Below, piece by piece: positions 1 through 64,000 of a stretch of 64,000 nucleotides of DNA; position 1 is the first letter of the stretch; every line of letters starts with the position of its first letter. The stretch comes from a virus. Made by a program: the position numbers and the translations under genes. The stretch lies in the IMG/VR virus record IMGVR_UViG_3300045988_182790; one strand, given 5' to 3'. The notes beneath the pieces are model-generated. The model did no database searches. It was not told the DNA's origin and saw only the letters and a program-made list of their open reading frames with translations.

Positions 1-65
1 ATGAAATTCAAAATCAAATTAAGGCACAAAAAATACAGACCATAAAAATGGCCTGTATGAAAAGT

Positions 66-656
66 TTACGAGATGAAACCCCAGTACTCCGCATCGTACT
101 CTGATAGCTTCATCCTCTGTTTTTTCTTTTTGTGAACCTTGACCGCTTCACTAAAGTCGTAATTTGCGATTTGGCGAAGAGCTTCGTTCACTTTGCTTGA
201 TGGAGTGTCGAGCATTAATTTATGCTCATGGAATCCCTTCATTGCATGGCCATCCTGCCTTTGTCTTGCAGTCTGACAATAGTTATTGTGAAATAATCTG
301 ACCTCTCCTATAGAAAAATCAATATAGAAAGTATCGCCTTTCTTTTTCACATATAACTTCTCCCCATGCAATTCCAACTTACACTTGTTCTCCACGAGCA
401 ATTTGTGGAGTGTGGCATTAGTGATTTCGTAATCGTGTACAAGTCTTTCATATGACTTATAATTTTTCACAATATCACTCGCACTCTCCGTAATGAAAAC
501 CATCGCTGCGCACATCGGACAGGTTTTCATCTTTTTGGGATTAAATTTGTCTATAACTTCAAGTCCCTCAATATCCCAATCTTGAATTTTAGGACAAGTA
601 GGCATATGGACAATCCTTGCTCCGCCTATTGTACGAAGAATTTTAATGTCAGCCAT
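66..656 (-). CDS. hypothetical Cys-rich protein (196 aa)
   Basis: Intact ORF, minus strand like neighbours. Several CxxC-like pairs (CPKIQ...CPMC). No recognisable catalytic motifs. Confidence 0.45.
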   Translation of the reverse strand: MADIKILRTIGGARIVHMPTCPKIQDWDIEGLEVIDKFNPKKMKTCPMCAAMVFITESASDIVKNYKSYERLVHDYEITNATLHKLLVENKCKLELHGEKLYVKKKGDTFYIDFSIGEVRLFHNNYCQTARQRQDGHAMKGFHEHKLMLDTPSSKVNEALRQIANYDFSEAVKVHKKKKQRMKLSEYDAEYWGFIS

Positions 657-963: not shown

Positions 964-1056
964 ATCTTAGTACCTCCCTTTCGTAATTTTATAAAGTTCA
1001 AGTAAAATATGAGATTTGTAAAACAAATAAGACCACTCGTTTGAGTGGCCTATTAA

Positions 1057-5550: not shown

Positions 5551-6405
5551 ATGACTAATCAGCGATGTTACAAAGCAATTAAAGATACATCTTTTATAAA
5601 TACTGTAAATAAAATGCGTTCAACTGGTTCGCCTGCTTATGTTTGTTCTATAGAAACGACAGGACTTAATTCATATGACAATGAAATAATCTGCATTGAT
5701 GTTATAAAATGTCATTTTGAAGGAGCTGACTTAATAAAAGATGGCGAAAAGCGTTTTTTATGTAAACCAGAAACTCCATTATCAGAAGAAATTGAAAATA
5801 TTTCTGGAATTACCAATGAAATGTTAAGTACAGCTTTAGATGTTGAGACAATGATGAGCGAATTTGTTTCTGCCATAGGAAGTTCTCCTAACATTGTTGG
5901 GTTTAATATCATTGATTTCTGTTCTCCATTCTTCAAAATGGCTGGATTTAACAGTGGATATATGCCTGATTTATCTTCTGCCATTGATTTAATGTCGATT
6001 GCAAAAGCAACTCTTCCACTAGGAAGTTATAAGCTTAAAACAATTTGTAAAGCGCTGGGAATTAACGAAGCTGATTGCTTATCATCTGTTGTTTCTAGCA
6101 AGGCAAATATGAAATTTGAAGTATTTAAACAAATTTGTTCTCTTGTTCCTGCAGGAACCGAAGTTGCAGAGATTTTGGATATGAAATACTGGAAGAAATC
6201 ATATAATTGCAGATTTATTTATGTGTATACCAATTTTGGCAAAGTTGCTTTTAATTGCAAAACATTATACTGGCAGGAATGTGATGACGGATTTTTTGAT
6301 GTTGTAGACCTTGATAAGTTGTCATTAACCATTTGCCAGACATATAATTGCGCAAATATGTTTGAATTTGTAAAAAAGTTTGAAGCTAAACAGGGGGTAA
6401 AATAA
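5551..6405 (+). CDS. DnaQ-like (DEDD) 3'-5' exonuclease-fold protein, possibly inactive
   Basis: Exo I-like VCSIETTGL, but the first Asp is replaced by Ser. Exo II-like GFNIIDF. Exo III region NEADCLSS has no His. RBS AAAGGAAG 8 nt before the ATG. One of the few plus-strand genes. Confidence 0.5.
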   Translation: MTNQRCYKAIKDTSFINTVNKMRSTGSPAYVCSIETTGLNSYDNEIICIDVIKCHFEGADLIKDGEKRFLCKPETPLSEEIENISGITNEMLSTALDVETMMSEFVSAIGSSPNIVGFNIIDFCSPFFKMAGFNSGYMPDLSSAIDLMSIAKATLPLGSYKLKTICKALGINEADCLSSVVSSKANMKFEVFKQICSLVPAGTEVAEILDMKYWKKSYNCRFIYVYTNFGKVAFNCKTLYWQECDDGFFDVVDLDKLSLTICQTYNCANMFEFVKKFEAKQGVK

Positions 6406-6850: not shown

Positions 6851-8116
6851 TCACTTTTTCTCAATGCCTCTCTTTGCGTAGCAATGTGGACATTCAATAA
6901 AATGAACCCCTTCTGGCAGGAAAGTTATATCTTCATCACTTTCTTCGCCACAAATTGGGCACGTCATATGTTCTATCTGATGAACAACCGCTGTATGAAA
7001 CTCTTTTGTTTTTTCATCTACGTCATATAACTTGGCGTATAATTCGCTTGTAACATCATCCGAGATTTTAAGATACATTACGCACCATTGCTGATTAAAT
7101 TTGTTGGTTTTTAAGCAATCTCTCATCTTGTTGAGCATAACATTCCATCTTGCGTTCTTTAAACCAGCAATATAGTCTATAGTCTCTTTATAAAGAACTT
7201 TGATTTTATCAAGCTCCTTTTTATTGTTTTCCTTCTCTTCTTTTGACAATCCTCTTTTCTTCTTTTTATCAGAGGTCTTTTCTTCTGATACGTTAGAGGC
7301 TTTTTCTTTTGCAGGCTTTGGAACATCCTGAGGCTTTGGAATTTCTTTATCAGGTTTTATTTTTACTGGTTTATCCAATTTATTTTCCAATTCGACTGGT
7401 TCAACTGCTTTATCTCTAATAGATGAATGTTCTGCTGATTTATTGATAGCATCAGAAACCTTTTCTAATGCTTTTTCGGTTTCAATAACTACATCAGAGG
7501 TTAATTTGAACTCATCTTTTTCTTTGTTTTCGGTTTCTGGTATTGCATCTTTTACAATCTCTTTTGCTGTTACATTTTCTGCAACTGTGTCTTCTGTGAT
7601 ATTGTCTTCTGAGACTATATTTTCTGGCACAGTATCCTTTTCCACCCAAAGGAAATCTTTTTCTGTTAAGACATCATCATCACTGTTTGAGTAATGAGAA
7701 AGTAACACATTGTTAACAATTGTTTCATTATCAATATCCTGTAAATGATACTGTTTATAAATTTCATCTTTGTTAATTTTTGAACAGTCAAGACCTATAG
7801 CATCAAATAAAGTCTCGATTGCAGGATTTTTGAATCCTGAAACATCAAAAGAGTTAACTTTGTTATGACTGCATTCATTTGTATGAATATAAATTGTATT
7901 CGGCTCCTCTGCCATATTTTCTTTATCTGCAGTAAGAATACAGTTTATATCTTTGTCAGAAAATAATTCCATCTCATTTTCTATCACACATTCAATACTT
8001 TCAGGTTCGCCTATGAACTTTATGTGTGAAAAAAGACCTTTACCTTTACGGTTTATGTAAATTTTGTTAAATACTGCCAACTCTGGACAAAAATCTTTAC
8101 ACCAATCTGTTTGCAT
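6851..8116 (-). CDS. hypothetical acidic/K-E-rich protein with C-terminal zinc ribbon
   Basis: C-terminus CPICGEE...CPHC. Long low-complexity K/E/D central region. Class-A motif at 8148-8160. Confidence 0.5.
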   Translation of the reverse strand: MQTDWCKDFCPELAVFNKIYINRKGKGLFSHIKFIGEPESIECVIENEMELFSDKDINCILTADKENMAEEPNTIYIHTNECSHNKVNSFDVSGFKNPAIETLFDAIGLDCSKINKDEIYKQYHLQDIDNETIVNNVLLSHYSNSDDDVLTEKDFLWVEKDTVPENIVSEDNITEDTVAENVTAKEIVKDAIPETENKEKDEFKLTSDVVIETEKALEKVSDAINKSAEHSSIRDKAVEPVELENKLDKPVKIKPDKEIPKPQDVPKPAKEKASNVSEEKTSDKKKKRGLSKEEKENNKKELDKIKVLYKETIDYIAGLKNARWNVMLNKMRDCLKTNKFNQQWCVMYLKISDDVTSELYAKLYDVDEKTKEFHTAVVHQIEHMTCPICGEESDEDITFLPEGVHFIECPHCYAKRGIEKK

Positions 8117-8245
8117 TGAATTACTTCCTTTCTTTTGTATTTATACTAAATATGAAATGTCTAAAAATAAGTTAATTGCGTATAGACATATGAAGAAAAA
8201 TATCTACAATATAAGTAGAGATATTTTACGAAAGGAAGATGAAAA

Positions 8246-9061
8246 ATGGATTTTTGGGATATATTGGGAGAAATTCGAATGTATTTGTCACAAACTTATG
8301 CAAGAGGAATTTTCAGATTTAGGCGCTTTTCATCAAGTGATGAAGAAGCTACAAGAAAAAGATTTGAACATTCACGTGCAATGGAAGCTGGTTCGAGAAA
8401 TCTTATAGTTGGTGATGATATATTTGAACAGGACGAATCTGATAAATTAGATAATGCTTATCGAAATACAGTGATGGGACATTTGCTTAGAGAAAATACT
8501 GTTTTTGAGTTTGTATTCATGTTTTGGCTTACAATATTTATGTTTGTAACTTTTAAATATCCTTACAAAAACAATATTTTTGTTACCGCGAGCTCTCTTG
8601 AAAAATATGTTCTTGCTGGAATAATATCTTTTCTTGGAGCAATGTGTGCAGCAATTATTCTTGAATCTGACAGAGATACAGCAAGCAGAGTTGTTCTTAC
8701 AGATGTATATGTTTTAGCTCCTAGACAAAGAGGTTGGCATTCGCCTATTATGTTTTTATTACCTTCTATTGGGCCTGTTACAGCAATATTTGTTACAAAA
8801 GCGCTTGGTTTTACGACTGTATCTGGCTGGCTAAAACTATTTACTATTTCTTGGTTTATTGGAGCGTTTTTAGATTTACTTGCAAATACTTTTACTGTGT
8901 ATGGAGTTATGTGGCTGTTTCCGCTTACAAAAAAGCGTTTTCATTTCCCAAGAGTGATTTGTGTTAAAGATTTGGCAGAAGAATGGATTTTTAAAGTTAC
9001 ATTTTTCATTATAAACCTTGTTATAGAAATTGTTCTTGCGAGAATGATGTTTCGTTTTTAA
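8246..9061 (+). CDS. polytopic membrane protein (271 aa)
   Basis: At least five hydrophobic helices. Plus-strand gene ending at the shared terminator at 9066-9104. Confidence 0.5.
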   Translation: MDFWDILGEIRMYLSQTYARGIFRFRRFSSSDEEATRKRFEHSRAMEAGSRNLIVGDDIFEQDESDKLDNAYRNTVMGHLLRENTVFEFVFMFWLTIFMFVTFKYPYKNNIFVTASSLEKYVLAGIISFLGAMCAAIILESDRDTASRVVLTDVYVLAPRQRGWHSPIMFLLPSIGPVTAIFVTKALGFTTVSGWLKLFTISWFIGAFLDLLANTFTVYGVMWLFPLTKKRFHFPRVICVKDLAEEWIFKVTFFIINLVIEIVLARMMFRF

Positions 9062-10401: not shown

Positions 10402-10442
10402 ATTTCTTCTCTCCTTTTAATACAAAAATTTGTTGTATAAGG

Positions 10443-10455
10443 AATATGAGATTTG
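10443..10455 (-). promoter_or_regulatory. class-A conserved upstream motif (example)
   Basis: CAAATCTCATATT on the gene strand about 40 nt before the ATG of the 9109-10401 gene. The same 10-13-mer recurs before more than 20 genes. Confidence 0.5.
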
Positions 10456-10505
10456 AGTACAAAAAAAAAGAGACACCGCTTAATGCGGTGTCTTTTTTGG
10501 TGTTA

Positions 10506-11567: not shown

Positions 11568-11695
11568 ACGTCTTTCCTCCTTTTAAAAAATGTTTTATAG
11601 ATACATTACTAATATGAAATACGAAAATGCATTAACAAGACAAAATAAAAAGCGCCCACAGCCAAGGATATACCTTAGACATGAACGCTTTTCTT

Positions 11696-11812: not shown

Positions 11813-11878
11813 ATATTTTTTTCCTCCCTTTAAAAATGATTTTATTAATACATTTTTAATATGAGATTTGAAGGTGAA

Positions 11879-13972
11879 TTAACGAACATTAAACAAATAC
11901 TCGCAGAAAATCCGCCTGCAATCTACATATGACGGACAATATTTTCTTTTGTGGATAAATCTGGCCACTTTATTAATGATTTTGCAAATAGCATATTCGT
12001 TTGCATGGAGTAGTTTATTGATAAACTCGTCTCTGCAAACAATATGTCCATTACAAGAAAAGTATTCCCAGCCTTTTGTTGTGCGAAGCTTGTCATACAT
12101 AGTACGAACATGGTCAATTGCTGTCAGCATCTCCTTATCGTATGAGCATAGTTCAAAGTCATTGGTTAACTCAGCATAAATTTCATCTATATTCTTGGTT
12201 GGTGTAAATGTGTCAGGGTATTCTGTATCATTTTTTTCTAAAGATGCTTTCATTCCGCGTATAATGAACGAAAAATGTCCATTTGTTACAGCTTTTGCAA
12301 TGTGCATGATATCGAAATATGCAGCATTAACAGACGTATCTATCTCATATGCTTTTGCAATCTGATTTAAGGCTTTACACACCTTTTCCTGCATATCTGC
12401 ATCAGCATAATCATATATATACGTCTTCATTTGTTTCATATTGTTAGCTCTGTTTTCTGGCAGCATTGTACGAAGATACTCAAGAAATGACAAACCATAG
12501 CCATATTTATCTTCATCTACTACTGGACTGTTAGAAAAATCTTCTTCTATAATGTCAAAGTCTATGCCATCTACATTGAATGTTGTAGGTTCACTTGCTG
12601 TTTTATTTGGCAAGTTAGTTTCATTTACATCCACATAGCTTTTTTTGGCACTTTTTTTATTTTTTAAAAACAGCTCACTTTCATAAGCTGCATTCCAGTC
12701 GATTTCTGAGAAATCTTTGATACTTCCCTTTGTATGTCCACAATCGTATTTCTTGGCAATTCTTTTTACGGTTCTAAGTGGAACTTTTGTAAGAAGAACT
12801 ACCTCATTATATGTATCACACTTTAAGATTGCCTGAACAACTACTTTGTCCCTATCAATTCTTTCACTGACAACCTTTTTGTGTTTTGCTTCCTTGCTTT
12901 CTTTTGATTCAAAGAAAAACGCGAATGTCTCATCCTTAGACAAATCAAGTCTGTCAATAATATACTGATTTGTCATCTTATAAGCATAGTTTCCGTTCTT
13001 TGCACTTGCAATAATGCCTCTTATCTCGTTATTGCTGATGCTGTAATCGGCAAATCCGTTATTAAATTCCTCAAGGGCGATAATTGCATCTTCCAATGGC
13101 ATAACAAGAATTGCTGTATGGAAGAAAATAAAACACAATGTATGATGTTTTGTAGACCAGTTTGTCCTACTATCACGCAAAGCAATAAGGTTCTCCAGTC
13201 TCTTTACAGCAAATTCTTCTATTGATTTTTTATTATGCTTTTTTGTCTTCTTTCCAGCATAAACAAACCCACAAATATCAGCTATTTCCGTGAGTGTGTA
13301 TTTTGCATCCTTGTTAAGCTCCAAGAGTCTACAGTATGTATGGGCTTCATAATTGTATGTACCAGGCAGTCTACAAAGTCTTGTTCCGTCCAGAACGCTT
13401 TTATCAACATCGAGAGTATCTTTGTCTCTTAAGATGTTTGCAATCTTGTTAGCAAGCTTTTTGTAAATAGCCTTGAAAAATCTTATCTGTTTTTCAGTAT
13501 CGCCAAATCCAGCAATAGATTTTGGCATGACAAAATACAGACCAAGGCCCCTGCCACTGTCTGTAAGCATTGTATAATTACATATTTCGTTGTTACTTAT
13601 AGCTTCTTTCAGCAAAGCTATTGTATTTTTCTTTCTCTTGGCAATCTCTTCGTCAGAGCTATTATGCGCATCCAAGTCAATGAAAAATCCATTGTAGCAG
13701 AATATCTTGTTCGATAATCTTCTATTTCCTGCAAATCTGTTAACAGTAATGTATGTATTTCCATTGTTTTCTGCAGAAATAAGTTTTTTAGGAACGCATG
13801 ATGCCAGAGGTTTTACTGACGGCTGTTTGTCCTTAAAACTGCACTTAATAATGGAACCCATATGATGAGTGCCATGCAATGTTTCTATGAAGTTTTTCTG
13901 CTCATTAAACAAAACATCTATTTCCATGCGTCTTGTCCTTTCGTATTTATTAGAAATATGAATTATGTACAA
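11879..13972 (-). CDS. primase-polymerase (AEP/PrimPol) domain protein with C-terminal extension
   Basis: Motif I FFIDLDAHN (hhhDhD); motif II TDSGRGLGLYFV; motif III RLCRLPGTYN. True start probably the internal MEIDVLF (ATG at 13929), which carries RBS AAAGGACAAGACGC and a class-A motif. Confidence 0.65.
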   Translation of the reverse strand: MYIIHISNKYERTRRMEIDVLFNEQKNFIETLHGTHHMGSIIKCSFKDKQPSVKPLASCVPKKLISAENNGNTYITVNRFAGNRRLSNKIFCYNGFFIDLDAHNSSDEEIAKRKKNTIALLKEAISNNEICNYTMLTDSGRGLGLYFVMPKSIAGFGDTEKQIRFFKAIYKKLANKIANILRDKDTLDVDKSVLDGTRLCRLPGTYNYEAHTYCRLLELNKDAKYTLTEIADICGFVYAGKKTKKHNKKSIEEFAVKRLENLIALRDSRTNWSTKHHTLCFIFFHTAILVMPLEDAIIALEEFNNGFADYSISNNEIRGIIASAKNGNYAYKMTNQYIIDRLDLSKDETFAFFFESKESKEAKHKKVVSERIDRDKVVVQAILKCDTYNEVVLLTKVPLRTVKRIAKKYDCGHTKGSIKDFSEIDWNAAYESELFLKNKKSAKKSYVDVNETNLPNKTASEPTTFNVDGIDFDIIEEDFSNSPVVDEDKYGYGLSFLEYLRTMLPENRANNMKQMKTYIYDYADADMQEKVCKALNQIAKAYEIDTSVNAAYFDIMHIAKAVTNGHFSFIIRGMKASLEKNDTEYPDTFTPTKNIDEIYAELTNDFELCSYDKEMLTAIDHVRTMYDKLRTTKGWEYFSCNGHIVCRDEFINKLLHANEYAICKIINKVARFIHKRKYCPSYVDCRRIFCEYLFNVR

Positions 13973-15468: not shown

Positions 15469-15564
15469 TTTTCTAAGCCCTTTCTTTTTGCTCTTAGAAA
15501 TATGAAATAAAGAAAAGTAGTGTAATAAAAAAGCCCATTTATAAAAATGGACTTTTCTTTGTGT

Positions 15565-17583: not shown

Positions 17584-17683
17584 ATTCTTTTCCTCCTTTA
17601 ATATGTTTTTGTTTATATGACGATATAAATATGAAATTCAGACATAAAAATAAGGAGAGCTTATTACCCTCCTTATCGTTGTT

Positions 17684-19479: not shown

Positions 19480-19581
19480 AGAATTATCCTTTCCATTTTT
19501 ATTTACAAATAATATGAAATATACAGAAATAAGTCTTTTGCATAAAGAAAAGAGCCTTTATTGGCTCTTCTCTATCTCATT

Positions 19582-22115: not shown

Positions 22116-22237
22116 CTCCTTTGATTATTTTTTTATCAACACATTTTTAATATGAGATTTGAAAATAAAATAAGGCTACTAAAAAACAATGTCATTAAGT
22201 ATTTTTTGGTAATCGACTGCCTGATATGTCTAAAATT

Positions 22238-22330: not shown

Positions 22331-22560
22331 TAATTTATGATATTTGATGTATTCATATATATACCTCCATGAGTATGTGTGAACACATTTAGTCACATCT
22401 GACAATATTTTTAATTACTTAGCGTTTCCTCCTTTATTATTTTGTTCAATATGGTCTAAAAGAATATGAGATTTGCAAATAAAAATGGCTCAAAACGCTC
22501 TAGAAACGCTTTAAGCCACTTTTTTATTGTTTAGTCCTCCAAGCAAAACTAAACAATTGT

Positions 22561-22795: not shown

Positions 22796-22799
22796 AAGA

Positions 22800-24367: not shown

Positions 24368-24502
24368 GTTTATCCCTCACTTTCTTCTTTTACTCATATA
24401 GTGGGCAAAAAGTGAGATTTATACAACGAAAATTGCTTATTTTTCTTCCAAATTTCATATTCCTTATATCTAAAAAATTTAATATTGAATGGAGGAAAAA
24501 TT

Positions 24503-25334: not shown

Positions 25335-25463
25335 ATCTCCACCTCTTTTTGTGTTCCTATTAATATTGTGGGCATTTTTTCGCGATAATTCAATGCTTAT
25401 TTTTCTTCCAAATTTCATATTCCTTATATCTAAAAAATTTAATATTGAATGGAGGAAATTATT

Positions 25464-29519: not shown

Positions 29520-29590
29520 ATTCTTTTCCTCCTTTAATGTATTTTTTATTTATATGACGATATAAATATGAAATTTGAATGTATGTGAAC

Positions 29591-36998: not shown

Positions 36999-37074
36999 AA
37001 TAAATTCCTCACTTTTTTTATTTACAAAAAATATGAGATACAGAAAAACAGGATAAGAAATTTGCTATTTATTA

Positions 37075-37112: not shown

Positions 37113-37220
37113 TTTGGTTTACATCCACATAGCATTTTTTGGCACTTTTTGTACTTAATTTGTTCTTAAATTTCATATTCCTTATACTGAACAATTTAAT
37201 ATTAAAAGGAGGAATTTATT

Positions 37221-42574: not shown

Positions 42575-42587
42575 AATATGAGATTTG
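42575..42587 (-). promoter_or_regulatory. class-A conserved upstream motif (example)
   Basis: CAAATCTCATATT about 40 nt before the dnaE exon-1 ATG. Confidence 0.5.
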
Positions 42588-42686
42588 AAAAGTGAAGTAA
42601 GCGATGTGATATATACAAATAGAGGGCATATTTGAGAAAATATTCAAAAAAAAGAACCACAATTTCTTGCGGTTCTAATTTTTTGT

Positions 42687-43412: not shown

Positions 43413-43502
43413 AGTTTTTACTCCCTTACATGAAGATTTTTTATAGTATGAATATGAGTTTTAGACATAAAAAAACCACTCTCTTTTGAGAGTGGTGATA
43501 AA

Positions 43503-50815: not shown

Positions 50816-50832
50816 ATCTTACACCTCTTTAT

Positions 50833-51105: not shown

Positions 51106-51181
51106 GGTTGTTATAAAGTCCTTTCTATTATTGTTTTAAAATTGTTACATAATATATATGAAATATAAAAAATAGGGTTAA

Positions 51182-51901: not shown

Positions 51902-51906
51902 AATTT

Positions 51907-52416: not shown

Positions 52417-52438
52417 TTTCGTATGAAGCTCCTTTCTG

Positions 52439-53308: not shown

Positions 53309-53311
53309 ACG

Positions 53312-54313: not shown

Positions 54314-54318
54314 AGTTC

Positions 54319-55710
54319 CTACTCCTTATCTGTATCTTCTACAATATCGCTTTCCTGAACTGGTTCTGATTTATCTTCTGGAACATTTTCGAGTTCTTCA
54401 AGTTCATGTTCTTTTGAGAGCTTGTATTCAATTTCAGCCAGTTCCTCTTTTTCAGCATCATTTGGTTTATAATTTAGGATTGTAGACTCCTCTGGATGGC
54501 GTCTATCATACACTGTGTCATAAATTATGGAGTAGGTATCACCTGATGTATCAAGGCCTCTAATTTCAGAAATTTCTTCTATTTTATAATTCTTCATAAA
54601 GATAACCACTTCCATAGCAGAAAGCATTGTGAGAACTTCATTCATTGTGTACCCTGTTGCCTGCATAATATAGTCAGCAAGCTTATACATAGCATCCTTT
54701 GAACTTTTACCGTGTACAGATGTCCAACATTTATGTCCTGTATATGCAGCCATGGCAAAGCTTTTTGCTTCCATACCCTTAATCTCACCAATCATGTAAT
54801 AATCGTTATCTGTGAGAAGACCATTTCTTGCAATATCTGCAAGTTCATAGCTGACTTTTCCCTCAGTACTTGCATTGACAGGTGATTGATACATAAAGTC
54901 TGGATGGTCACTAAATAACTCGGCACTTTCCTGAGCAATAAGTCCAGAATAAATAGTTGGAATATTATCAATCTCTGCATTCATTAAAGTAGATTTTCCT
55001 GATGCACCCTTTCCAGTGTAAATAATTCCACTTGAACACTTTGCTTTTATTTCCAAATATGGAACAAGCTCAGGTGGGAACATTTTTGCTTCTATCAGAT
55101 TATTCATATCCTTTTTGCGCTTAAGGATTTTTCTAATCTGGATTACTGGTAATTTACTTTCGTTGATGATACCGCCAGTAATATTAAAACGAAGTCTTGC
55201 GTGTTCATTATTATCAACGTCAGTAAATACACGAATAGCATTGGCATCAGTTAGTGATACTCCATTCTTCGAACAGACATTATCAATAAAACTGATATAA
55301 TCTGCTCTATCAATAAACTTAACGTTTGTAGCCTTTCGTTCGCCCTTTCGTTTAAGTCTGATATGCCCCTCGTCATAAATCTTGATATCAGAAATATCAT
55401 CATCGGCCAAAAAGTCTTCCAAAATGTAATAACCCCAAATTCGCTTGTCTAATCGCTTGAGGGTATCTTCAATTTGAGCTTCATCGCAAGTTACTGTTTG
55501 CAAATGTTTTCTCATCATTTTGAAGAATTCGTCTTTTGAGATGATATTCCTCTGAATGTTTGCGAGGTAATTACGGTCTGGCGCACTGGCATAATCAATT
55601 GCATACTTGAACAAGTCCCCTTCGTATCGTTCTACTGGTTCATTTTCAATTGTTACCTCTTTTTTCTGTTTCTTGAAAAAATTAAACATAAAACTTTTTT
55701 GTCCTTTCAT
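54319..55710 (-). CDS. CpaF/TadA-type secretion ATPase (VirB11/GspE superfamily)
   Basis: Walker A TGKGASGKST, Walker B-Asp box DNDYYMIGEIKGMEA, His box GHKCWTSVHG. Confidence 0.85.
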   Translation of the reverse strand: MKGQKSFMFNFFKKQKKEVTIENEPVERYEGDLFKYAIDYASAPDRNYLANIQRNIISKDEFFKMMRKHLQTVTCDEAQIEDTLKRLDKRIWGYYILEDFLADDDISDIKIYDEGHIRLKRKGERKATNVKFIDRADYISFIDNVCSKNGVSLTDANAIRVFTDVDNNEHARLRFNITGGIINESKLPVIQIRKILKRKKDMNNLIEAKMFPPELVPYLEIKAKCSSGIIYTGKGASGKSTLMNAEIDNIPTIYSGLIAQESAELFSDHPDFMYQSPVNASTEGKVSYELADIARNGLLTDNDYYMIGEIKGMEAKSFAMAAYTGHKCWTSVHGKSSKDAMYKLADYIMQATGYTMNEVLTMLSAMEVVIFMKNYKIEEISEIRGLDTSGDTYSIIYDTVYDRRHPEESTILNYKPNDAEKEELAEIEYKLSKEHELEELENVPEDKSEPVQESDIVEDTDKE

Positions 55711-55760
55711 TTTGTTTACGTTTAAAATGTGAAATACGGAAAAAGAGGTTAAAAAAAAGA

Positions 55761-55974: not shown

Positions 55975-57246
55975 TTATGACAACCTTATTCGTAACGGAC
56001 TTGCCAATAGCCCACTAGACAGTTTTTCACAAGTGAAGCCCTGCTTACCTTTCCTTAATATGTTATATGCACCATTTACATCTGCATTGAGAATTATGCC
56101 ATTTTTGCTTTGATACAAACCTCTCTTGATTCGTTTACCACTAAATTCCTTTGTATATGGTTGTTCGAATTTGTACTCAGGTAATTCATCATTATCCAAG
56201 AAGCTGCTCTTACTTGTGTAGCTTTCCTCTACTTCTTTGTATTCAACCCCATACTTCCAACATAAGAATTGCAGCTGTTCTCTCAAAATACCAAATGGTA
56301 CCTGTGTAAAGTTTTGATTATTCTGCTTTCCTATGTTTACAAAACGTTTGAAGTCCTTATTATATCCTACAATTAAAGTTCCTATATCATTGGCTAAACA
56401 CTGGTTTATAATGTATCTAGCAGTCTTTTTAATACAGTCATTAACCTGATTATTTCTCTTAGTAGTAAGTCTTTGAATACGATTTGTAGTAACTTTAGAA
56501 GTCTTTTGTTGTTTCATAGCAATAGAGTTATATTTCGCTATCTGCTTATTCCAATACTGGTTGATTGATTTAATCCTACGACCATCCATAATGAATGGTG
56601 TCATTATATTAGAAACACAGGTAGCAAGATTTTCTACTCCTATATCTATAGCCATAACCTTATTAGTATCTAAAGTTCTGATTTCTTGTTCTACAACATA
56701 GATATACTGCACTTTAAAATACTTTCCATTACCACAAGGAAGTATTCTAACTTCTTTAATTGTCTTATTTTGTAATCTTTCAGGGAACGGTATCTTTATA
56801 TCATCTTTGTAATTCTTTAATTTTCGATACTCTCTGCTCATTGGTATTTTGAAATATCCATCTTTAATAGATATGGCATTAGTAGACAGCACAAGGTTAA
56901 AAAGTCCACCTTTCTTGCGATAATTTGGAATTTTAACATCATTGTAACGATATTCACCTTGCTTACACTTTTTAAGTAAGTTGAAGAATGACTTAAAAGA
57001 CCTATCTACTACTTTCATAGTCTGTTGCGCAACACCAGCTTGCAACAATCCGTAGTTTTCATTATCCTTACATTCGTGATAGTTGCTTTCATAAGTTAAA
57101 AACTTATTTTGAGCAAAGAAATATTGTCTAATGTTGTAAAGTGCTACATTGTAAAGGTTATTAGAATACTGGCATAATTCTGTAAGTATTTGATGTTGCT
57201 CTTTTGTTAGACCACGAATTACATTACTTTGTACTGCATATTCCAT
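55975..57246 (-). CDS. tnpB: TnpB-like RuvC-fold protein lacking zinc-finger cysteines
   Basis: OrfB_IS605-like N-terminus, RuvC-III-like ADVNGAYNILRKG. The usual CxxC...CxxC region is absent. Downstream hairpin CCCGATGCTTTAGCATCGTGGG. Confidence 0.65.
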   Translation of the reverse strand: MEYAVQSNVIRGLTKEQHQILTELCQYSNNLYNVALYNIRQYFFAQNKFLTYESNYHECKDNENYGLLQAGVAQQTMKVVDRSFKSFFNLLKKCKQGEYRYNDVKIPNYRKKGGLFNLVLSTNAISIKDGYFKIPMSREYRKLKNYKDDIKIPFPERLQNKTIKEVRILPCGNGKYFKVQYIYVVEQEIRTLDTNKVMAIDIGVENLATCVSNIMTPFIMDGRRIKSINQYWNKQIAKYNSIAMKQQKTSKVTTNRIQRLTTKRNNQVNDCIKKTARYIINQCLANDIGTLIVGYNKDFKRFVNIGKQNNQNFTQVPFGILREQLQFLCWKYGVEYKEVEESYTSKSSFLDNDELPEYKFEQPYTKEFSGKRIKRGLYQSKNGIILNADVNGAYNILRKGKQGFTCEKLSSGLLASPLRIRLS

Positions 57247-57288
57247 AAGATTTAAACCTCCTTTCTTTAATGTTTACTATACCCTAAT

Positions 57289-57867
57289 CTAAAGATTAGG
57301 GGTTTTCTGGCTTTGCCTTACAAAACGGTCAATAAGTGACAAAATAACCATTGTTTTGATAGTTATTTCTTCTGGAATTATTTTCTGATTTGAAGAGATT
57401 TTTTCCATCATTTCATCGGCAAATAAATTGCATATTTCACAAACAAAATCTTTATTTTCTTCTATGTTTTTACCAGCGTCGTATTCCTGCAAATACCGTT
57501 CGTCTATATCTTCTTCTATTATTGCATTTTCTTCAAAGAAATTTTCTGCGTCGGTATTTATTTCTACAATAATATTGCTTATTGTATCTGCTAACTGTTC
57601 GTAATTATCCTTTTTTGCAGCAAATAATTCGTCAACAAAATCTTTTAATCTGTTCAAGTCATGACCCATATCTGGCTTGTCAATTGAGCTTAAACCATTC
57701 TGCCAACGAAAGGCGCGTACATTTTTCTTTTCTGGTTCTGGCGCAATTGATATAGCTAAATCCAAGGCATTTAATAAATTTTCCATTCCATCTATGCCAT
57801 TAGCCTCTTTAATTTCACTTTTATGCAATTCTTTTTCTATTTGTTTAATTGTTTTATCTGAACTCAT
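57289..57867 (-). CDS. paralog family L protein (192 aa)
   Basis: Shares KSEIKEANGIDGMENLLNALDL and RWQNGLSS blocks with the 24726 and 37480 proteins. No small partner gene. Confidence 0.5.
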   Translation of the reverse strand: MSSDKTIKQIEKELHKSEIKEANGIDGMENLLNALDLAISIAPEPEKKNVRAFRWQNGLSSIDKPDMGHDLNRLKDFVDELFAAKKDNYEQLADTISNIIVEINTDAENFFEENAIIEEDIDERYLQEYDAGKNIEENKDFVCEICNLFADEMMEKISSNQKIIPEEITIKTMVILSLIDRFVRQSQKTPNL

Positions 57868-58009
57868 GAATTTACCTCTTAATATTATTCTTTTTATTTA
57901 TTGTAGGTATTTTTTGGTATTTATTCAACGCAATTAGTGTCCTTAATTTATTTACAGAACTCATATTTATTATATCTAAACAATTTCATATATTTAAAGG
58001 AGGGAATAC

Positions 58010-58170
58010 TAAGTAATTCAAAATATTGTCAAATGTGATTAAACGTGTCTAAATGTACTCATGGAGGTATACTTATGAATACATCAAATATCACAAATTA
58101 TAAACCAAAAGATTTTGCTGAATTACTAGGTGTTTCCGTCAAAACATTACAAATAATATCATTTATCTGA
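58010..58170 (+). mobile_element. IS607-family left-end fragment with a 31-codon tnpA remnant
   Basis: About 85% identical to 22238-22400 in reverse orientation. Encodes MNTSNITNYKPKDFAELLGVSVKTLQ... Overlaps and supplies the last codons of the collagen-like gene. Confidence 0.5.
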
Positions 58171-59561
58171 GTTTCAATATCTGAAATAATACCATCATAT
58201 GAAGTTGAAACGGCTGATAAAATATTAGTCTTTAATGTGTTTATTTCTTCATCAGTAAAATAATCAGTACCCTTTACTGGTGTATATCCATTTGCACCAT
58301 CCGTACCATGCAAAGAATTAAGCCATTCAGCTCTTGTGCCTGAAAATCCTTCTTCTACTGCGATTTCATATGCATCAAGTCCATCACTGCCATCTGCACC
58401 GTTTACTCCGTCTGTTCCATTAACAACTCTTGACTGTACAGTGCTTACGATTGATGCAATCTCATCATCGGTGAAATAATCCACACCTTTAACTGGTGTA
58501 TAACCGTCTGCCCCATCTGCACCATTTTGTACTGTTGCGGAAATTTGGTCAATGATTGCATTGATTTCGTCTGTAGTAAAGTAATCCACACCCTTTACTG
58601 GTGTATAACCATCCGCACCATTAGTACCGTCTACACCACTTTGTACTTGTGATGCGATTTCATCAATCATTGCATTAATTTCATCTGGCGTAAAGTAATC
58701 TACACCCTTTACTGGTGTATAACCGTCTGCACCTTTAACGATACTGTTTATCTGGTCTGATAGTGTAGCTGTTACGTTAGCCGCAATTTCTGTTTTGAGT
58801 GTTTCTGTATCAACAGTTGTTCCAGTATCAGTTGATGTGAAATACTTTGCAACTTCCTCTGAAATGTTAAGATTATTTTTCACATAATCATTTATTCTTA
58901 CCATTTCTTCATCAGATAATGTATAAGTTGTATCTGGTGTAGTTGTTGATGTCTCAGCACTGCTTAAAATAGTGGCAATCTGGCTTTCCAAAGATGATAC
59001 TCTGGTATTAAGGTCGGAAGTTACACTAGCTTTTTCTTCCTCGGATAATGTACAAGAGAAATTTGCCTCTGTAAGCTGAGCCTGCACAGCTGTTGCAACT
59101 TCATTTGTGATGTATGCTTTTGTATCTTCGGTAAGCGATGCAGTTGATGTAGATTGATAATTAGTAAAATCAATCTGAGCAATAGTGTCCGCAATCATAG
59201 CTTCAAATTCAGCTTTTGTTGAAGAGTCACCATCATCTGAAATAATAGTATTTGTCACTGATTGAGTAATATTATTAATTGTTTCCTCTGTAAAGTAATT
59301 TGATATATCATTCTGTTCAACGTACTGAACTATATAATCATCTACTTCATCTTTGATTTCAGATTTTACAGATGCAAGTGCTCCCTGCACATACTCTTCC
59401 TGTAGCTTCTGCTGTTCTTCTGGAGTGTTAACATATGCTATTGTGCCTGTAGAATTAGTTTTTAAATTGTCATATGCGATATATCCAGTTAAGACGCATG
59501 ATAATGTAATTATAGCAATCCATTGTTTAACAACTCTATTTTTCATTATTTTTCCTTCCAT
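58098..59561 (-). CDS. membrane-anchored collagen-like repeat protein (fibre/adhesin-like)
   Basis: N-terminal TM helix. Four tandem repeats GADGYTPVKGVDYFT(D/P)EI with GxDG collagen-like triplets. Class-A motif at 59587. Confidence 0.55.
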   Translation of the reverse strand: MEGKIMKNRVVKQWIAIITLSCVLTGYIAYDNLKTNSTGTIAYVNTPEEQQKLQEEYVQGALASVKSEIKDEVDDYIVQYVEQNDISNYFTEETINNITQSVTNTIISDDGDSSTKAEFEAMIADTIAQIDFTNYQSTSTASLTEDTKAYITNEVATAVQAQLTEANFSCTLSEEEKASVTSDLNTRVSSLESQIATILSSAETSTTTPDTTYTLSDEEMVRINDYVKNNLNISEEVAKYFTSTDTGTTVDTETLKTEIAANVTATLSDQINSIVKGADGYTPVKGVDYFTPDEINAMIDEIASQVQSGVDGTNGADGYTPVKGVDYFTTDEINAIIDQISATVQNGADGADGYTPVKGVDYFTDDEIASIVSTVQSRVVNGTDGVNGADGSDGLDAYEIAVEEGFSGTRAEWLNSLHGTDGANGYTPVKGTDYFTDEEINTLKTNILSAVSTSYDGIISDIETQINDIICNVLTETPSNSAKSFGL

Positions 59562-59651
59562 TTCTGTTTAACTTTTGCCTACAAAAAGAATATGAAATAC
59601 ACAAAAACAAATAAAAAAGAGAAGCTACAAAACTGCAGCCTCTCCTCTTTT

Positions 59652-62600: not shown

Positions 62601-64000
62601 GCGTACAAATGTTCCATCTTGAAGATAGTAGTCCTGATATCTAGCTCTAATGGTTGGTATATTAGCATAAAGACTTACAGGTATAGGGTGAGTAAATTCT
62701 CCTGAATAAGATAACCCATTATCTCTATAGGTAGAAACTGTTATGCCCATCCCAGTTCCGCAATTTGGTCCTGCCCCTGCTATTGAGTATTTTCCATACA
62801 TACCTGAAACTACATATTTGTATATTTTATTTCTATCTGGTGATGACATATAAAAAACACCGTTAGAAGTTTGACTATACCATTCAGATATAAACATCTG
62901 ATTATCTCGCTTTTTAAATTCACTTATACAATAATCAACATAAGAAGTAGTAGTTTCACTGCTAAGAACATATAAATTATCCTTATCTGAATAAGAATAA
63001 TCTCCGTGCCAAGCTTCGGTATTTAAAATCTCTACTTTACTTTTAATTTTTTCTAATTCTTCGGGGGATAATGAATTTAACAAAGCACCTACATATTCTA
63101 TATCTGTGTCTAATAGATAATGATTAAGTTCATCATTTTCCATATTCTCCCAATCTAAATCAAATATATTTGACTTAAGGTTGTAATCAGACTTAACAAC
63201 GCCTCCAAGATATTGGCTATTTTCTTTACCATTATCTTCTCCATGTTGCATATCTGCAATATCCAAATATTTACCATAATCACTTTTAGACATTGCATTT
63301 GAAAATTTATTTAACACGAGTTCTACATTCTTAGTTTCAGCACTCTCCAAATCAGCAATAATACTTGATACATAAGCGCAAGAGAATGATGTACCTATTG
63401 TATTATTGTAAGTACCAAAACAAGAATAATCTACTGTCTTACCATAGTTAGAATACTTGTAAGCTTCATTACTAGATACAGCTGCACCTACAACATAAGC
63501 AGACTTGAAATTTGCTGGGTATAAGTACTTAACATCGCTAGATGTATTACCTGCAGAAACTACTACCTTAATACCTTTTTCTTCTGCTTCTTTTACTAAT
63601 GTTTCTAGGTCACCTACATTAGAAGAATATACGTTAGTATTCATAGATAAGTTAATTATATCAACCCCCTGGTCTATAGCATAACGTAAACCCTTACAAA
63701 CATTTTCAATAGAAGTGTTTTCCTCTTCTCCTACAACCTTTATAGGTACAATTGATACTAAATCATTAGTATTGTTGCAAATAAGTTCTGCAATAATACT
63801 ACCGTGACCATTAATATCTTCTACATTTGTAGAGTCATCCAATACATTATAAGGATTTAAAACTCTATCTGAGTTTACTTTTTCAAGATTTAAACCCGTG
63901 TCAATAATCGCCACTGACACAGGTTTAACTTTCTCCAATGTACTTATGTATTCCTTAATTGTACCCTTGGGTGTATAGATGAAAGAATATACTACTAAAA
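59652..64000 (-). CDS. giant protein (more than 1,440 aa) with N-terminal subtilisin (S8) domain; 5' end outside window
   Basis: Catalytic triad motifs AIIDTG (Asp), HGSIIAELI (His), and GTSFSCAYVSS (Ser), followed by about 1,000 aa of Y/N/G/T-rich beta-type sequence. The frame stays open to the window edge. Confidence 0.75.
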   Translation of the reverse strand, partial: LVVYSFIYTPKGTIKEYISTLEKVKPVSVAIIDTGLNLEKVNSDRVLNPYNVLDDSTNVEDINGHGSIIAELICNNTNDLVSIVPIKVVGEEENTSIENVCKGLRYAIDQGVDIINLSMNTNVYSSNVGDLETLVKEAEEKGIKVVVSAGNTSSDVKYLYPANFKSAYVVGAAVSSNEAYKYSNYGKTVDYSCFGTYNNTIGTSFSCAYVSSIIADLESAETKNVELVLNKFSNAMSKSDYGKYLDIADMQHGEDNGKENSQYLGGVVKSDYNLKSNIFDLDWENMENDELNHYLLDTDIEYVGALLNSLSPEELEKIKSKVEILNTEAWHGDYSYSDKDNLYVLSSETTTSYVDYCISEFKKRDNQMFISEWYSQTSNGVFYMSSPDRNKIYKYVVSGMYGKYSIAGAGPNCGTGMGITVSTYRDNGLSYSGEFTHPIPVSLYANIPTIRARYQDYYLQDGTFVRSETNYDYDKHFGGDAGYYIGYHINFNNYINRRVGYHSEDNGVTALNANGGGGTSNENAYVADYLGRVWEERSSVNFNKLVFGYADVWYNTSVKYSNDKSTYKYKRIPDLYFPINESTLNSNSGTFTLQVSPMHSFGTYWYEELNGSLCVWSDIPEFVFGLTPNTYTINYNGNGATGGSVASQTVDFGNNWTLRDGFTKTGYHLKGYAVVRASDNAIFCGSKGWQSEYGWAHPEKWTIYSAGSTWTMDEAWANTSSDVLNDTFTFCAQWEPNTYLQKVYVRYQNADGSWGSYSPVINKNYDYGSTVSWSRAADSAYKVASISYTVTSANTKYVSVYRNSYKQTINYYYNKASGLYNSPTHTKTSLGSKTWSQLYGTTFNALGYKAAWGNVTGYHWSSIDKNSWTVTGNASTNSFYYPNKYRLYVDVAGGTGTNGNYDMEYGTSINLGTPSRIGWTFKGWQIITNNSTNSSLSSNTFTMGYNNSYKYQSYVAVPTVKIIANWQDSSAPAGNDTILKATNPTKTTTYASVTASTSKADTPWVNNNVLLTFTSKDNESGLSGLGIYEKITSGWKAVSSKTLSGATTAQSITYTDSKEGSYTYYGKATDNASATYGSPANKITSTAELTVHIDKTAPVYKEELLTTGIKHGSLPHGMTTGGVVVDTETGDVNISELSSKITVEVSDENSTLADSTDTSGIKKVTLVVYDSDYVTDSDVYTNIYKAGTGKDALVSALKYKEYDMTAEVDSIEKNSAGAIYEAVYAVTTNLYEDFKTSASLKYFIVAVDNAGNENKVYSAEDEAISNISIFAYITRDAKDLDDGSDNFLCGDGGTLHIVTYGYVDELDIDFPSKLLKASLLDAERAQGEHPLGTTQKDNTEYVEGAILDPTITLTGDCQRNYDYPFVVPLYLGDESIGFLTKASTWTAENPVCDLTELLTFETGYKHTNTMSGTATATAQAKAKCYVGTNDNGETKLTDKFHTHIIAPD

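What the first reader, a model, noticed from the sequence alone, without database searches (positions are those of the whole stretch)
1..64000. Class A: a conserved 10-13-nt motif before more than 20 genes
On the coding strand the sequence (C)AAATCTCATATT or TATTTCATATT lies 35-50 nt before start codons. Plus-strand coordinates include 1006, 8148, 10443, 11610, 11868, 13957, 15491, 17628, 19510, 22149, 22463, 29565, 37020, 42575, 43452, 51160, 55728 and 59587. The same motif occurs in plus orientation before the plus-strand genes at 24451, 25410 and 37180. It does not fit a sigma-70 -35/-10 pair, and there is no -35 hexamer 17 nt upstream. The best reading is a single-element promoter for a dedicated (possibly element-encoded) polymerase or sigma factor.
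Basis: seen in the sequence. Interest (0 to 1): 0.6.

Follow-up and report, generated by a model that had tools for sequence, protein, structure and literature searches.

The report
Element-specific promoter motif, CATATT core
A 14-base sequence (cAAATyTCATATT) sits just upstream of about 20 genes of an uncultured, plasmid-like element from gut Clostridia; it is almost certainly a promoter that works without a -35 box, is shared by the element's relatives, and differs from the TATAAT promoters of likely host chromosomes.

Summary
ATYTCATATT occurs 18 times against 1.7 expected, and 17 of the 18 lie in the 14% of the window that is intergenic. All intergenic copies point at the downstream gene and end 27-45 nt before its start codon. 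Twelve of the 25 candidate sites follow a terminator hairpin.

The invariant core, CATATT, behaves like a sigma-70-family -10 hexamer:
- It keeps A-11 and T-7.
- A purine sits exactly 7 nt downstream in 25 of 25 sites.
- There is no TTGACA-like -35 box and no TG extension. Instead there is a T-rich tract and an invariant A at -16.

Eight related contigs share only the CATATT-N6-purine core, including upstream of orthologous dnaE, primase and other genes. In chromosomal loci of gut Clostridia, TATAAT dominates and CATATT is rare.

A second promoter class in the window (TTGAAT-17-yACwAT) looks like an ordinary primary-sigma promoter.

No sigma or RNA polymerase gene was found in the 74 kb I could read. 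Four relatives encode a divergent RpoD-like sigma, and in two of them its gene is preceded by a CATATT promoter.

Best reading: a -35-independent promoter class read by a specialised, probably element-encoded, sigma factor. This is a new member of a known kind, of moderate interest.

The parts
1006..1019 (-). Class A site ACAAATCTCATATT. It ends 42 nt before the ATG of gene 658-963. A terminator hairpin ends 17 nt upstream.
8149..8162 (-). Class A site AGACATTTCATATT, 32 nt before the ATG of gene 6851-8116. It lies back-to-back with a class B promoter for 8246-9061 (+).
10443..10456 (-). Class A site TCAAATCTCATATT, 41 nt before the PARP-domain gene 9109-10401. A terminator lies at 10493-10471.
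11611..11624 (-). Class A site TCGTATTTCATATT, 43 nt before gene 10506-11567 (353 aa). The orthologues in L126 and L128 also carry a CATATT promoter.
11858..11871 (-). Class A site TCAAATCTCATATT, 43 nt before a 38-aa ORF that starts at 11814.
13955..13968 (-). Class A site ACATAATTCATATT, 27 nt before gene 11879-13927 (682 aa, no known domain).
15499..15512 (-). Class A site CTTTATTTCATATT, 30 nt before the TTG start of gene 14188-15468. A terminator lies upstream.
17628..17641 (-). Class A site CTGAATTTCATATT, 44 nt before the UvrD-type helicase gene 15565-17583. A terminator lies at 17677-17649.
19511..19524 (-). Class A site GTATATTTCATATT, 31 nt before gene 17890-19479.
22149..22162 (-). 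Class A site TCAAATCTCATATT, 42 nt before the TnpB gene 20937-22106.
22463..22476 (-). Class A site GCAAATCTCATATT. It lies about 30-40 nt outside the left end of the IS607-like TnpB element and reads into a truncated tnpA remnant.
24448..24461 (+). Class A site CCAAATTTCATATT, 41 nt before the plus-strand gene 24503-24709 (68 aa). It is divergent from a class B promoter at 24398 (-).
25408..25421 (+). Class A site CCAAATTTCATATT, 42 nt before the plus-strand gene 25464-25985 (RNase A-like CdiA-CT domain). It is divergent from a class B promoter at 25365 (-).
29565..29578 (-). Class A site TCAAATTTCATATT, 45 nt before gene 28821-29519.
37030..37043 (-). Class A site CTGTATCTCATATT, 31 nt before gene 36357-36998. 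The orthologues in L125, L130 and L131 also have CATATT promoters.
37166..37179 (+). Class A site TTAAATTTCATATT, 41 nt before a 72-aa plus-strand ORF that starts at 37221. This ORF is a paralogue of 24503-24709.
42575..42588 (-). Class A site TCAAATCTCATATT, 41 nt before the N-terminal half of dnaE (40833-42533). Every relative examined has CATATT-N6-R upstream of the orthologous gene.
43451..43464 (-). Class A site CTAAAACTCATATT, 38 nt before the DnaG zinc-ribbon (primase-like) gene 42687-43412. A terminator lies upstream. The orthologues in L126, L128 and L132 have CATATT promoters.
57954..57967 (+). Class A site ACAGAACTCATATT. It reads into a second copy of the IS607-like left end and truncated tnpA remnant. 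No intact gene lies downstream.
59589..59602 (-). Class A site GTGTATTTCATATT, 27 nt before gene 58098-59561. A terminator lies upstream.
1..11 (-). Class A site cut by the window start (TTGAATTTCAT...). The full site is L002 10646-10659, upstream of an 84-aa gene outside the window. A terminator lies at 58-33.
51155..51168 (-). Weak variant TTATATTTCATATA (T-7 replaced by A), 49 nt before gene 50833-51105. Its function is doubtful.
55726..55739 (-). Weak variant CCGTATTTCACATT (T-10 replaced by C) upstream of the T2SSE-type ATPase gene 54319-55710. A terminator lies upstream.
6106..6119 (-). Perfect-scoring copy TCAAATTTCATATT lying antisense inside the plus-strand exonuclease gene 5551-6405. 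No RBS or start codon follows. It may be an antisense promoter or a chance copy.

Best explanation
The motif is the core of a -35-independent promoter class ('class A') of a large plasmid-like element from gut Clostridia.

Anatomy. CATATT is the -10 hexamer (-12 to -7). The lineage-specific upstream part, with T at -13, y at -14, T at -15 and an invariant A at -16, plus a T-rich tract from -27 to -21, substitutes for the missing -35 box. Transcription would start at the conserved purine 7 nt after the hexamer. This gives 5' leaders of about 20-40 nt that carry the strong AAGGAGG ribosome-binding site.

Reader. The promoter would be read by the bacterial multisubunit RNA polymerase carrying a sigma-70-family factor whose -10 specificity differs from that of the host primary sigma (C instead of T at -12, T instead of A at -8). 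The most likely reader is an element-encoded RpoD-like sigma of the kind found in related elements. That sigma would be expressed first from ordinary sigma-A-type 'class B' promoters and then reinforce its own expression.

Shown: the enrichment, position, orientation and geometry of the motif, the absence of a -35 box, conservation in relatives, and the contrast with host chromosomes.

Inferred: the start site, the identity of the sigma factor and the order of expression.
For: - Enrichment and placement: 18 copies of ATYTCATATT against 1.7 expected, 17 of 18 intergenic, all pointing at the downstream gene and ending 27-45 nt before its start.
- Terminator hairpins end 14-49 nt upstream of 12 of the 25 candidate sites. 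This leaves no room for another promoter between terminator and motif.
- The -10 geometry holds: A-11 and T-7 are invariant, and a purine sits at the 7th nt after the hexamer in 25 of 25 sites, with T at -1 in 16 of 20.
- There is no -35 box: score 2.6 of 6, against 2.57 for controls.
- In six related loci (L125, L126, L128, L130-L132) CATATT is the most frequent hexamer in upstream windows, present in 23 of 54. The median for composition-matched permutations is 2. In 21 of the 23 a purine follows after N6, 32-65 nt before the start codons.
- The core is kept upstream of orthologous dnaE-N, primase, 353-aa and 213-aa genes, and also in L133 and L214.
- Chromosomal Clostridia loci use TATAAT (24% of windows, rank 2) and not CATATT (2%). 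The element shows the reverse.
- A separate class B in the window does have a -35 box: TTGAAT/TTAGAT, 16-18 nt, yACwAT, scoring 3.86 of 6 against 2.57.
- Relatives L126, L128, L213 and L214 encode a 320-336-aa RpoD-like sigma that scores far below the RpoD equivalog cut-off. It carries substitutions next to the -12 and extended -10 contact residues of regions 2.4 and 3.0.
- The sigma gene is preceded by a CATATT promoter in L128 and L214, and by a class-B-like promoter in L126 and L128.
Against: - No sigma or RNA polymerase gene was found in the window plus 10 kb of flank. Pfam was run on about 60 proteins, and a custom sigma HMM on all 685 ORFs of at least 40 aa gave a best E-value of 0.8.
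- The remaining 25.4 kb of the contig could not be read.
- The sigma-Rce1 module that lies next to the 353-aa gene in relatives is absent from that position here.
- An RpoD-like sigma with an intact region 4 would normally be expected to use a -35 box, and the class B promoters fit it at least as well.
- There are no transcript 5' ends, so the start site and promoter activity are untested.
- The upstream T-rich tract partly coincides with terminator T-runs, so it may not be a recognition element.
Confidence: 0.5

Rival explanations
1. Host RNA polymerase with its primary sigma-A reads the CATATT hexamer as a weak -10. It does so either alone with help from the A/T-rich upstream DNA, or with an element-encoded activator that binds cAAATyT and replaces the -35 contact. 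This would resemble T4 MotA/AsiA-type or class II activation.
For: - CATATT keeps the two bases that matter most to sigma-A (A-11 and T-7), and the spacing to a purine start is canonical.
- No sigma gene was found in 74 kb.
- The lineage-specific flank next to a constant core is what a lineage-specific activator would produce.
Against: - Likely host chromosomes hardly ever use CATATT (2% of upstream windows, against 24% for TATAAT).
- The motif has no TG extension and no -35 box, so it should be very weak for sigma-A alone.
- The flank abuts the hexamer (-19 to -13), where sigma region 3.0 would sit rather than an activator.
- No DNA-binding regulator was recognised among the window proteins.
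Confidence: 0.22
2. A host alternative sigma factor reads the motif. One example would be a sporulation-type sigma-E/sigma-K factor, whose -10 elements begin with CATA and whose -35 elements are minimal. That would tie expression of the element to a host developmental or stress state.
For: - From general knowledge, -10 elements of the Bacillus and Clostridium sigma-E and sigma-K factors begin with CATA, and sigma-K promoters have only a 2-nt -35 element.
- The core is constant across elements that probably live in different Clostridia.
Against: - CATATT is nearly absent upstream of genes in 622 kb of chromosomal Clostridia loci, although sporulation genes are few in that sample.
- More than 20 genes, including replication genes (dnaE, primase, helicase), would depend on a developmental sigma, which is an odd arrangement for a replicon.
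- No AC or ATA element was seen at -35.
Confidence: 0.1
3. A dedicated polymerase outside the sigma-70 system reads the motif as a single-element promoter. Candidates are a T7-like single-subunit enzyme, a YonO-like enzyme, or something new.
For: - The motif is highly conserved and carries high information (four identical 14-mers).
- It has no -35 box.
- Many window proteins have no recognisable domain.
Against: - There is no PF00940-type or other polymerase hit in any protein.
- No DxDGD-type catalytic motif occurs in any ORF longer than 150 aa.
- The large unannotated protein of relatives that I checked looks like a repetitive surface protein.
- The hexamer plus purine spacing is exactly that of sigma-70-type promoters.
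- Relatives carry a sigma, not a polymerase.
Confidence: 0.06
4. The motif is not a promoter. It could be an operator for a repressor, a 5'-UTR RNA element, or a repeated mobile or structural DNA element that happens to lie between genes.
For: No transcript data exist. One perfect copy lies antisense inside a gene (6106-6119), and two copies lie next to IS ends.
Against: - The motif is not palindromic.
- It has a strict orientation and a fixed distance window relative to start codons.
- Terminators lie immediately upstream, so a promoter must overlap it.
- Only 6 nt plus the +1 purine are conserved across relatives, which fits a -10 element and not an operator or an RNA structure.
- The flanks of the copies are otherwise unrelated, so it is not a mobile repeat.
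Confidence: 0.05

Closest known systems
SigN regulon of Bacillus subtilis plasmid pBS32 (Burton et al. 2019, PMC6751061)
   Same: - In pBS32, a large plasmid of a Firmicute carries its own highly conserved promoter consensus upstream of many plasmid genes, including replication and nucleotide-metabolism genes, and hardly anywhere on the chromosome.
- The sigN gene has sigma-A-type promoters plus an autoregulated SigN promoter.
- This is the arrangement seen upstream of the sigma gene in relatives L128 and L214.
   Different: - SigN promoters are bipartite (TTTACG, about 12-15 nt, GATATA). Class A has no -35 element and a different hexamer.
- SigN is a distant, weakly sigma-like protein. The sigma of the relatives is RpoD-like.
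- No sigma gene has been found on this contig so far.
Phage T4 late promoters (TATAAATA, read by gp55 with gp33 and the sliding clamp); from general knowledge
   Same: Both are a single extended -10-type element with no -35 box, repeated upstream of many genes of the element.
   Different: - The sequences differ.
- gp55 is a truncated sigma that needs a DNA-loaded clamp.
- No gp55 or gp33 homologue was detected here (Pfam and PHROGs).
- The element looks plasmid-like, not phage-like.
Extended -10 (TGnTATAAT) promoters of primary sigma factors; from general knowledge
   Same: Both are -35-independent, with extra specific bases immediately upstream of the -10 hexamer, where sigma region 3.0 binds.
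   Different: Positions -15/-14 are T-y, not T-G. The hexamer is CATATT, not TATAAT. An invariant A at -16 and a T-rich tract have no counterpart in extended -10 promoters.
Bacillus phage SPO1 middle and late promoters (gp28; gp33/34, with -10 GATATT); from general knowledge
   Same: Both involve element-encoded sigma factors that redirect host core polymerase to element-specific consensus sequences. The late -10 element, GATATT, differs from CATATT by one base.
   Different: SPO1 promoters have specific -35 elements. SPO1 is a lytic phage with a temporal cascade, which has not been shown here.
Sporulation sigma-E/sigma-K promoters (-10 CATAnnnT); from general knowledge
   Same: Both have C at -12 followed by ATA. 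Sigma-K promoters have an almost negligible -35 element.
   Different: These are host developmental regulons. Their downstream consensus (CATAcAnT / CATAnnnTA) is not matched consistently. No AC or ATA -35 element is present.

Membership tests
Sigma-70-family promoter (-10 element) | A hexamer with A at position 2 (-11) and T at position 6 (-7) | tested here: met
   CATATT is invariant in 20 strong sites in the window. It also occurs in 23 upstream windows of relatives.
Sigma-70-family promoter (-10 element) | Transcription start, usually a purine, 6-8 nt downstream of the hexamer | tested here: inconclusive
   A purine is at the 7th nt in 25 of 25 window sites and 21 of 23 sites in relatives. 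No 5'-end data exist, so the start itself is not shown.
Canonical primary-sigma (sigma-A) promoter | A TTGACA-like -35 hexamer 16-18 nt upstream of the -10 | tested here: not met
   The mean best match is 2.6 of 6, against 2.57 at random intergenic positions. Class B sites in the same window score 3.86.
Canonical primary-sigma (sigma-A) promoter | The hexamer type used upstream of chromosomal genes of the host group | tested here: not met
   CATATT occurs in 2% of 199 chromosomal Clostridia upstream windows and TATAAT in 24%. The host identity is only approximate.
Extended -10 promoter | TG at -15/-14 | tested here: not met
   Positions -15/-14 are T (17 of 20) and C or T (20 of 20), with no G.
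Regulon of an element-encoded sigma factor (SigN/pBS32 or SPO1 type) | A sigma-family gene on the same element | tested here: inconclusive
   None was found in the window plus 10 kb of flank. The other 25.4 kb of the contig is unread. A sigma gene is present in relatives L126, L128, L213 and L214.
Regulon of an element-encoded sigma factor (SigN/pBS32 or SPO1 type) | A consensus restricted to the element and repeated upstream of many of its genes | tested here: met
   About 20 sites in the window and 3 more in the flank. The motif is rare in chromosomal loci.
Regulon of an element-encoded sigma factor (SigN/pBS32 or SPO1 type) | Transcription from the consensus depends on that sigma | not testable with these tools
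   This needs in vitro transcription or genetics.
T4-late-type (gp55) promoters | The TATAAATA element and a gp55-like truncated sigma | tested here: not met
   The sequence differs. No gp55-like hit appeared in the Pfam or PHROGs scans. PHROGs was run on only 10 proteins.
Single-subunit (T7-like) RNA polymerase promoters | A T7-like polymerase gene (PF00940) and a conserved promoter of about 20 nt running through +1 | tested here: not met
   There is no polymerase hit. Conservation stops at -7 except for the +1 purine. The unread part of the contig leaves a small doubt.

The most novel reading that the evidence does not exclude
A whole family of uncultured large plasmid-like elements of gut Clostridia runs an orthogonal transcription programme from -35-less CATATT promoters.
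Probability: 0.12. Interest if true: 0.75.

Novelty: new member of a known kind. Interest (0 to 1): 0.42.

Why it matters
- The motif marks about a third of the transcription units of an unstudied family of large replicons in human-gut Clostridia. These replicons carry a split dnaE, Tad-like pilus genes, TnpB insertion sequences and actin-like partition genes.
- Together with the second, sigma-A-like class, it gives a ready-made two-tier regulatory map.
- It provides a sequence tag (CATATT-N6-R after a terminator) for recognising members of the family in metagenomes.
- It is a candidate orthogonal promoter/sigma pair for genetic tools in Clostridia.
- The principle itself is not surprising. 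Mobile elements with their own promoter consensus and sigma factor are well known.

Tried and rejected
- A scan of IMG/VR for the exact 14-mer TCAAATCTCATATT gave only single, scattered chance hits. It was uninformative.
- The search for related loci with DnaE-N in IMG/VR found nothing. Megablast and tblastn against isolated phages and plasmids found no close relative, with at most 35% amino-acid identity.
- I tried several ways to reach the unread 25 kb of the contig, and all failed:
  - A homologue search with the third TnpB copy returned about 45 alleles with the same N-terminus and none traceable to this contig.
  - An exact 26-mer from the flank matched nothing in the JGI metagenomes or the GTDB genomes.
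  - The 1512-aa flank protein had no relative in the JGI metagenomes.
- A sigma search with the relatives' sigma found no member on the 100.3-kb contig.
- The GTDB scan with the DnaE-N alignment was flooded by chromosomal dnaE, and only L133 was a true relative. The chromosomal loci were reused as the host-promoter control.
- The generic sigma-70 promoter scan found no more than chance (85 against 71 +/- 8).
- PDB sequence searches of six unknown proteins gave nothing. PHROGs on ten proteins gave nothing.
- A literature search for the motif string gave nothing specific apart from the SigN paper.
- I considered TCATATT as a -35-type box with a downstream TATAAA as the -10, and rejected it. The spacing to the A/T-rich downstream hexamers varies from 2 to 20 nt, and several sites leave only 27-32 nt to the ATG.
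- I considered CTTATTT 16 nt upstream as a -35 element, and rejected it. In many sites it is the terminator T-run, and its spacing varies from 13 to 18 nt.
- Rfam found no group I intron in the dnaE gap.
Full report
**Source and context.** The window is positions 35311-99310 of a 100,300-bp metagenomic contig (ENA ERZ27229639, k119_147736). It has 34% G+C, and almost all genes lie on the minus strand.

Recognisable proteins:
- RecD2-, SNF2- and UvrD-type helicases.
- A dnaE split into two ORFs, a DnaG zinc-ribbon protein, PhoH, an AAA ATPase and a flotillin.
- A PARP-domain protein.
- A Tad/Flp-like set (CpaB, two T2SSF proteins, T2SSE).
- A 1428-aa subtilase.
- Two TnpB genes.

No phage structural protein and no PHROG family were found. 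Relatives carry a T4SS coupling protein and actin-like ALP_N partition genes. The element therefore looks like a large plasmid rather than a phage. One relative is binned in an Acetatifactor (Lachnospiraceae) MAG. The relatives' sigma is closest to the RpoD of Ruminococcus and Oscillospiraceae. The host is probably a gut member of the Clostridia, but this is approximate.

- TCATATT occurs 55 times against 29 +/- 6 in shuffles. Of these, 21 lie in the 14% of the window that is intergenic, where about 5 are expected.
- ATYTCATATT occurs 18 times against 1.67 +/- 1.2, and 17 of the 18 are intergenic.
- A 14-position matrix at >=12 bits gives 24 hits, 23 of them intergenic.
- All intergenic copies point at the downstream gene, including the four on the plus strand. 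Those with an identifiable start codon end 27-45 nt before it, upstream of a strong AAGGAGG ribosome-binding site.
- Three more copies lie in the 10 kb to the left on the same contig, one of them cut by the window edge.
Two listed sites (51155 and 55726) change the core hexamer.

**Anatomy.** I aligned 20 strong sites and numbered them with CATATT at -12 to -7.
- The invariant positions are A-16, T-13 and the hexamer.
- T-15, y-14, A-18 and c-19 are strongly preferred.
- Positions -27 to -21 are T-rich.
- T is frequent at -4 and -1.
- The 7th nucleotide after the hexamer is a purine in 25 of 25 candidate sites.
- There is no -35 box. The best TTGACA match 16-18 nt upstream scores 2.6 of 6, the same as random intergenic positions at 2.57.
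- Twelve of the 25 candidate sites have a terminator-like hairpin plus T-run ending 14-49 nt upstream. The layout is terminator, motif, leader, RBS, ATG, with no room for another promoter.

I rejected two alternative architectures because the spacings vary too much. One treats the motif as a -35-type box with a downstream TATAAA. The other treats an upstream CTTATTT as the -35 box.

**A second class in the same window.** Fourteen intergenic, gene-co-oriented sites read (c)C-yACwAT and are preceded at 16-18 nt by TTGAAT, TTAGAT or TAGACA. Their -35 score is 3.86 of 6, against 2.57 for controls. This 'class B' looks like an ordinary primary-sigma promoter. Several intergenic regions carry one class A and one class B promoter back to back (8117-8245, 24368-24502, 25335-25463).

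**Relatives.** The nearest relatives by DnaE-N identity are distant, at 35-57%. None has the AAATyT prefix. All have the core.
- In 54 upstream windows of six loci, CATATT is the most frequent hexamer (23 windows). The median for the 60 composition-matched permutations is 2.
- In 21 of the 23, a purine follows after N6.
- The flanks are lineage-specific: TTTTA-CATATT-TAAnnC-GTAAC in L126 and L128, ATA-CATATT-AAA in L132, c-CATATT-TAATAT in L130 and L131, and tcT-CATATT-nnntgt in L133.
- The core is retained upstream of orthologous genes: dnaE-N in all seven relatives, the primase, the 353-aa protein and the 213-aa protein.
- L126 and L128 also have a second, bipartite class (TTTCCA...TTCACTATATA), which sits upstream of the orthologue of a class B gene of the window (the RNase T-type exonuclease).

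So both promoter classes, and the assignment of genes to them, are conserved across the family.

**Host control.** The GTDB scan returned mostly chromosomal dnaE loci. I used 30 of them from Clostridia (622 kb) as a control.

| Sequence set | Upstream windows with TATAAT | Upstream windows with CATATT |
|---|---|---|
| Chromosomal Clostridia loci (199 windows) | 24% (rank 2) | 2% (rank 934) |
| This element (window plus flank) | 3% | 37% (rank 1) |
| Relatives | 13% | 61% (rank 1) |

Class A is therefore not the usual promoter type of the likely hosts.

**Who reads it?**
- No sigma or polymerase gene was found in the 74 kb I could read. Pfam was run on about 60 proteins. A custom HMM built from sigma homologues was run against all 685 ORFs, with a best E-value of 0.8. 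No DxDGD motif was found.
- Four related contigs encode a 320-336-aa RpoD-like sigma in a conserved sigma, Rce1-like, 360-aa-protein arrangement.
- This sigma scores about 200-230 bits against RpoD models whose cut-offs are 350-570 bits.
- Relative to chromosomal RpoD, it has substitutions flanking the residues that contact -12 and the extended -10 region. For example, WWIRQAITR becomes WWIKQKITR or WWIKQKIQR, and PVHMVET becomes SVHEQER.
- Its gene is preceded by a CATATT promoter in L128 and L214, and by the bipartite class in L126 and L128. This is the mixed sigma-A plus autoregulatory arrangement described for sigN of pBS32 (PMC6751061).
- In the window, the gene homologous to the 360-aa neighbour (10506-11567) has no sigma beside it.
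- The remaining 25 kb of the contig could not be reached.

**Conclusion.** That the motif is a promoter -10 region with a lineage-specific upstream extension and no -35 box is well supported (about 0.85). That it is read by a specialised sigma-70-family factor encoded by the element is the best single model, but it is inferred (about 0.5 for the whole statement).

The rivals are:
- host sigma-A with or without an element-encoded activator (0.22);
- a host alternative sigma of the CATA-reading type (0.10);
- a polymerase outside the sigma-70 system (0.06);
- not a promoter at all (0.05).

The closest known systems are the pBS32 SigN regulon, T4 late promoters, extended -10 promoters and SPO1 sigma cascades. 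Class A shares the logic of these but none of their sequences. It fails the defining tests for canonical sigma-A, TG-extended, T4-late and T7-type promoters. I rate it a new member of a known kind, of moderate interest.

Noticed in passing
window 3214, 3375, 5434, 24398, 25365, 26418, 28156, 31135, 32943, 35109, 47595, 57900 (-); 5503, 8204 (+); also L002 20066-20100: A second conserved promoter class ('class B'): TTGAAT/TTAGAT/TAGACA, 16-18 nt, (c)C-yACwAT. It has a clear -35 box (3.86 of 6 against 2.57 for controls) and lies upstream of at least 14 genes. A counterpart (TTTCCA...TTCACTATATA) occurs in relatives L126 and L128, including upstream of their sigma gene.
   Followed up: partly
window 38203-42533 (-), gap 40483-40832: dnaE is split exactly at Pfam DNA_pol3_alpha profile position 102/103 into two ORFs 350 nt apart. 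Relatives have HNH or LAGLIDADG homing-endonuclease ORFs in the same gap (L125, L130, L132), and a conserved CGGGAAACCGAGGGT lies just before the second ORF. This suggests an intron, but Rfam found no group I or group II model.
   Followed up: partly
window 20749-22434 and 55975-58060; L002 20482-20591: At least three IS607/IS605-type TnpB elements are present. RAGATH-18 RNA lies at 20816-20888 (-), downstream of one tnpB. Truncated tnpA (MerR-type HTH) remnants follow the element ends. Near-identical TnpB alleles occur on many chromosomal contigs of gut Clostridia.
   Followed up: partly
window 22422-22476 (-) and 57954-58012 (+): Two independent copies of the IS left end (CTAAGTAATTnAAAATATTGTCAnATGTGA) each lie about 30-40 nt downstream of a class A promoter, and the sequences upstream of the two are unrelated. 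This could be insertion into class A leaders or selection for promoter capture. It is unexplained.
   Followed up: no
window 24368-24502, 25335-25463, 37166-37220, 10402-10456: Near-identical class A promoter plus leader cassettes (TCATATTCCTTATAyc...AATTTAATATT) are repeated. Two of them drive small paralogous plus-strand proteins (68 aa at 24503 and 72 aa at 37221, with a shared HGFAD...DLEQI C-terminus). One drives a protein with an RNase A-like CdiA-CT toxin domain (25464-25985). Each faces a class B gene, which may indicate toxin/immunity-type modules.
   Followed up: no
window 6106-6119 (-): A perfect class A copy lies antisense inside the RNase T-type exonuclease gene (5551-6405, +), with no RBS or ORF start behind it. 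It may be an antisense-RNA promoter.
   Followed up: no
window 22559-22636 (-): ARAGORN calls a tRNA-Met here, but Rfam at gathering threshold reports no tRNA. Two overlapping degenerate class A-like copies (22777-22797) lie about 140 nt upstream.
   Followed up: no
window 50120-55710 (-): A Tad/Flp-pilus-like gene set (CpaB/RcpC-like, two T2SSF-like membrane proteins, a T2SSE ATPase) lies next to a 1428-aa subtilase and an aRib-domain protein. These are unusual cargo for a replicon that also carries its own DNA polymerase III alpha subunit.
   Followed up: no
L126 4504-6080; L128 3974-5570; L213 236-1781; L214 2650-4258: In relatives the RpoD-like sigma gene is always followed directly by an Rce1-like (CPBP) intramembrane protease gene. 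This could be an anti-sigma or processing partner.
   Followed up: no
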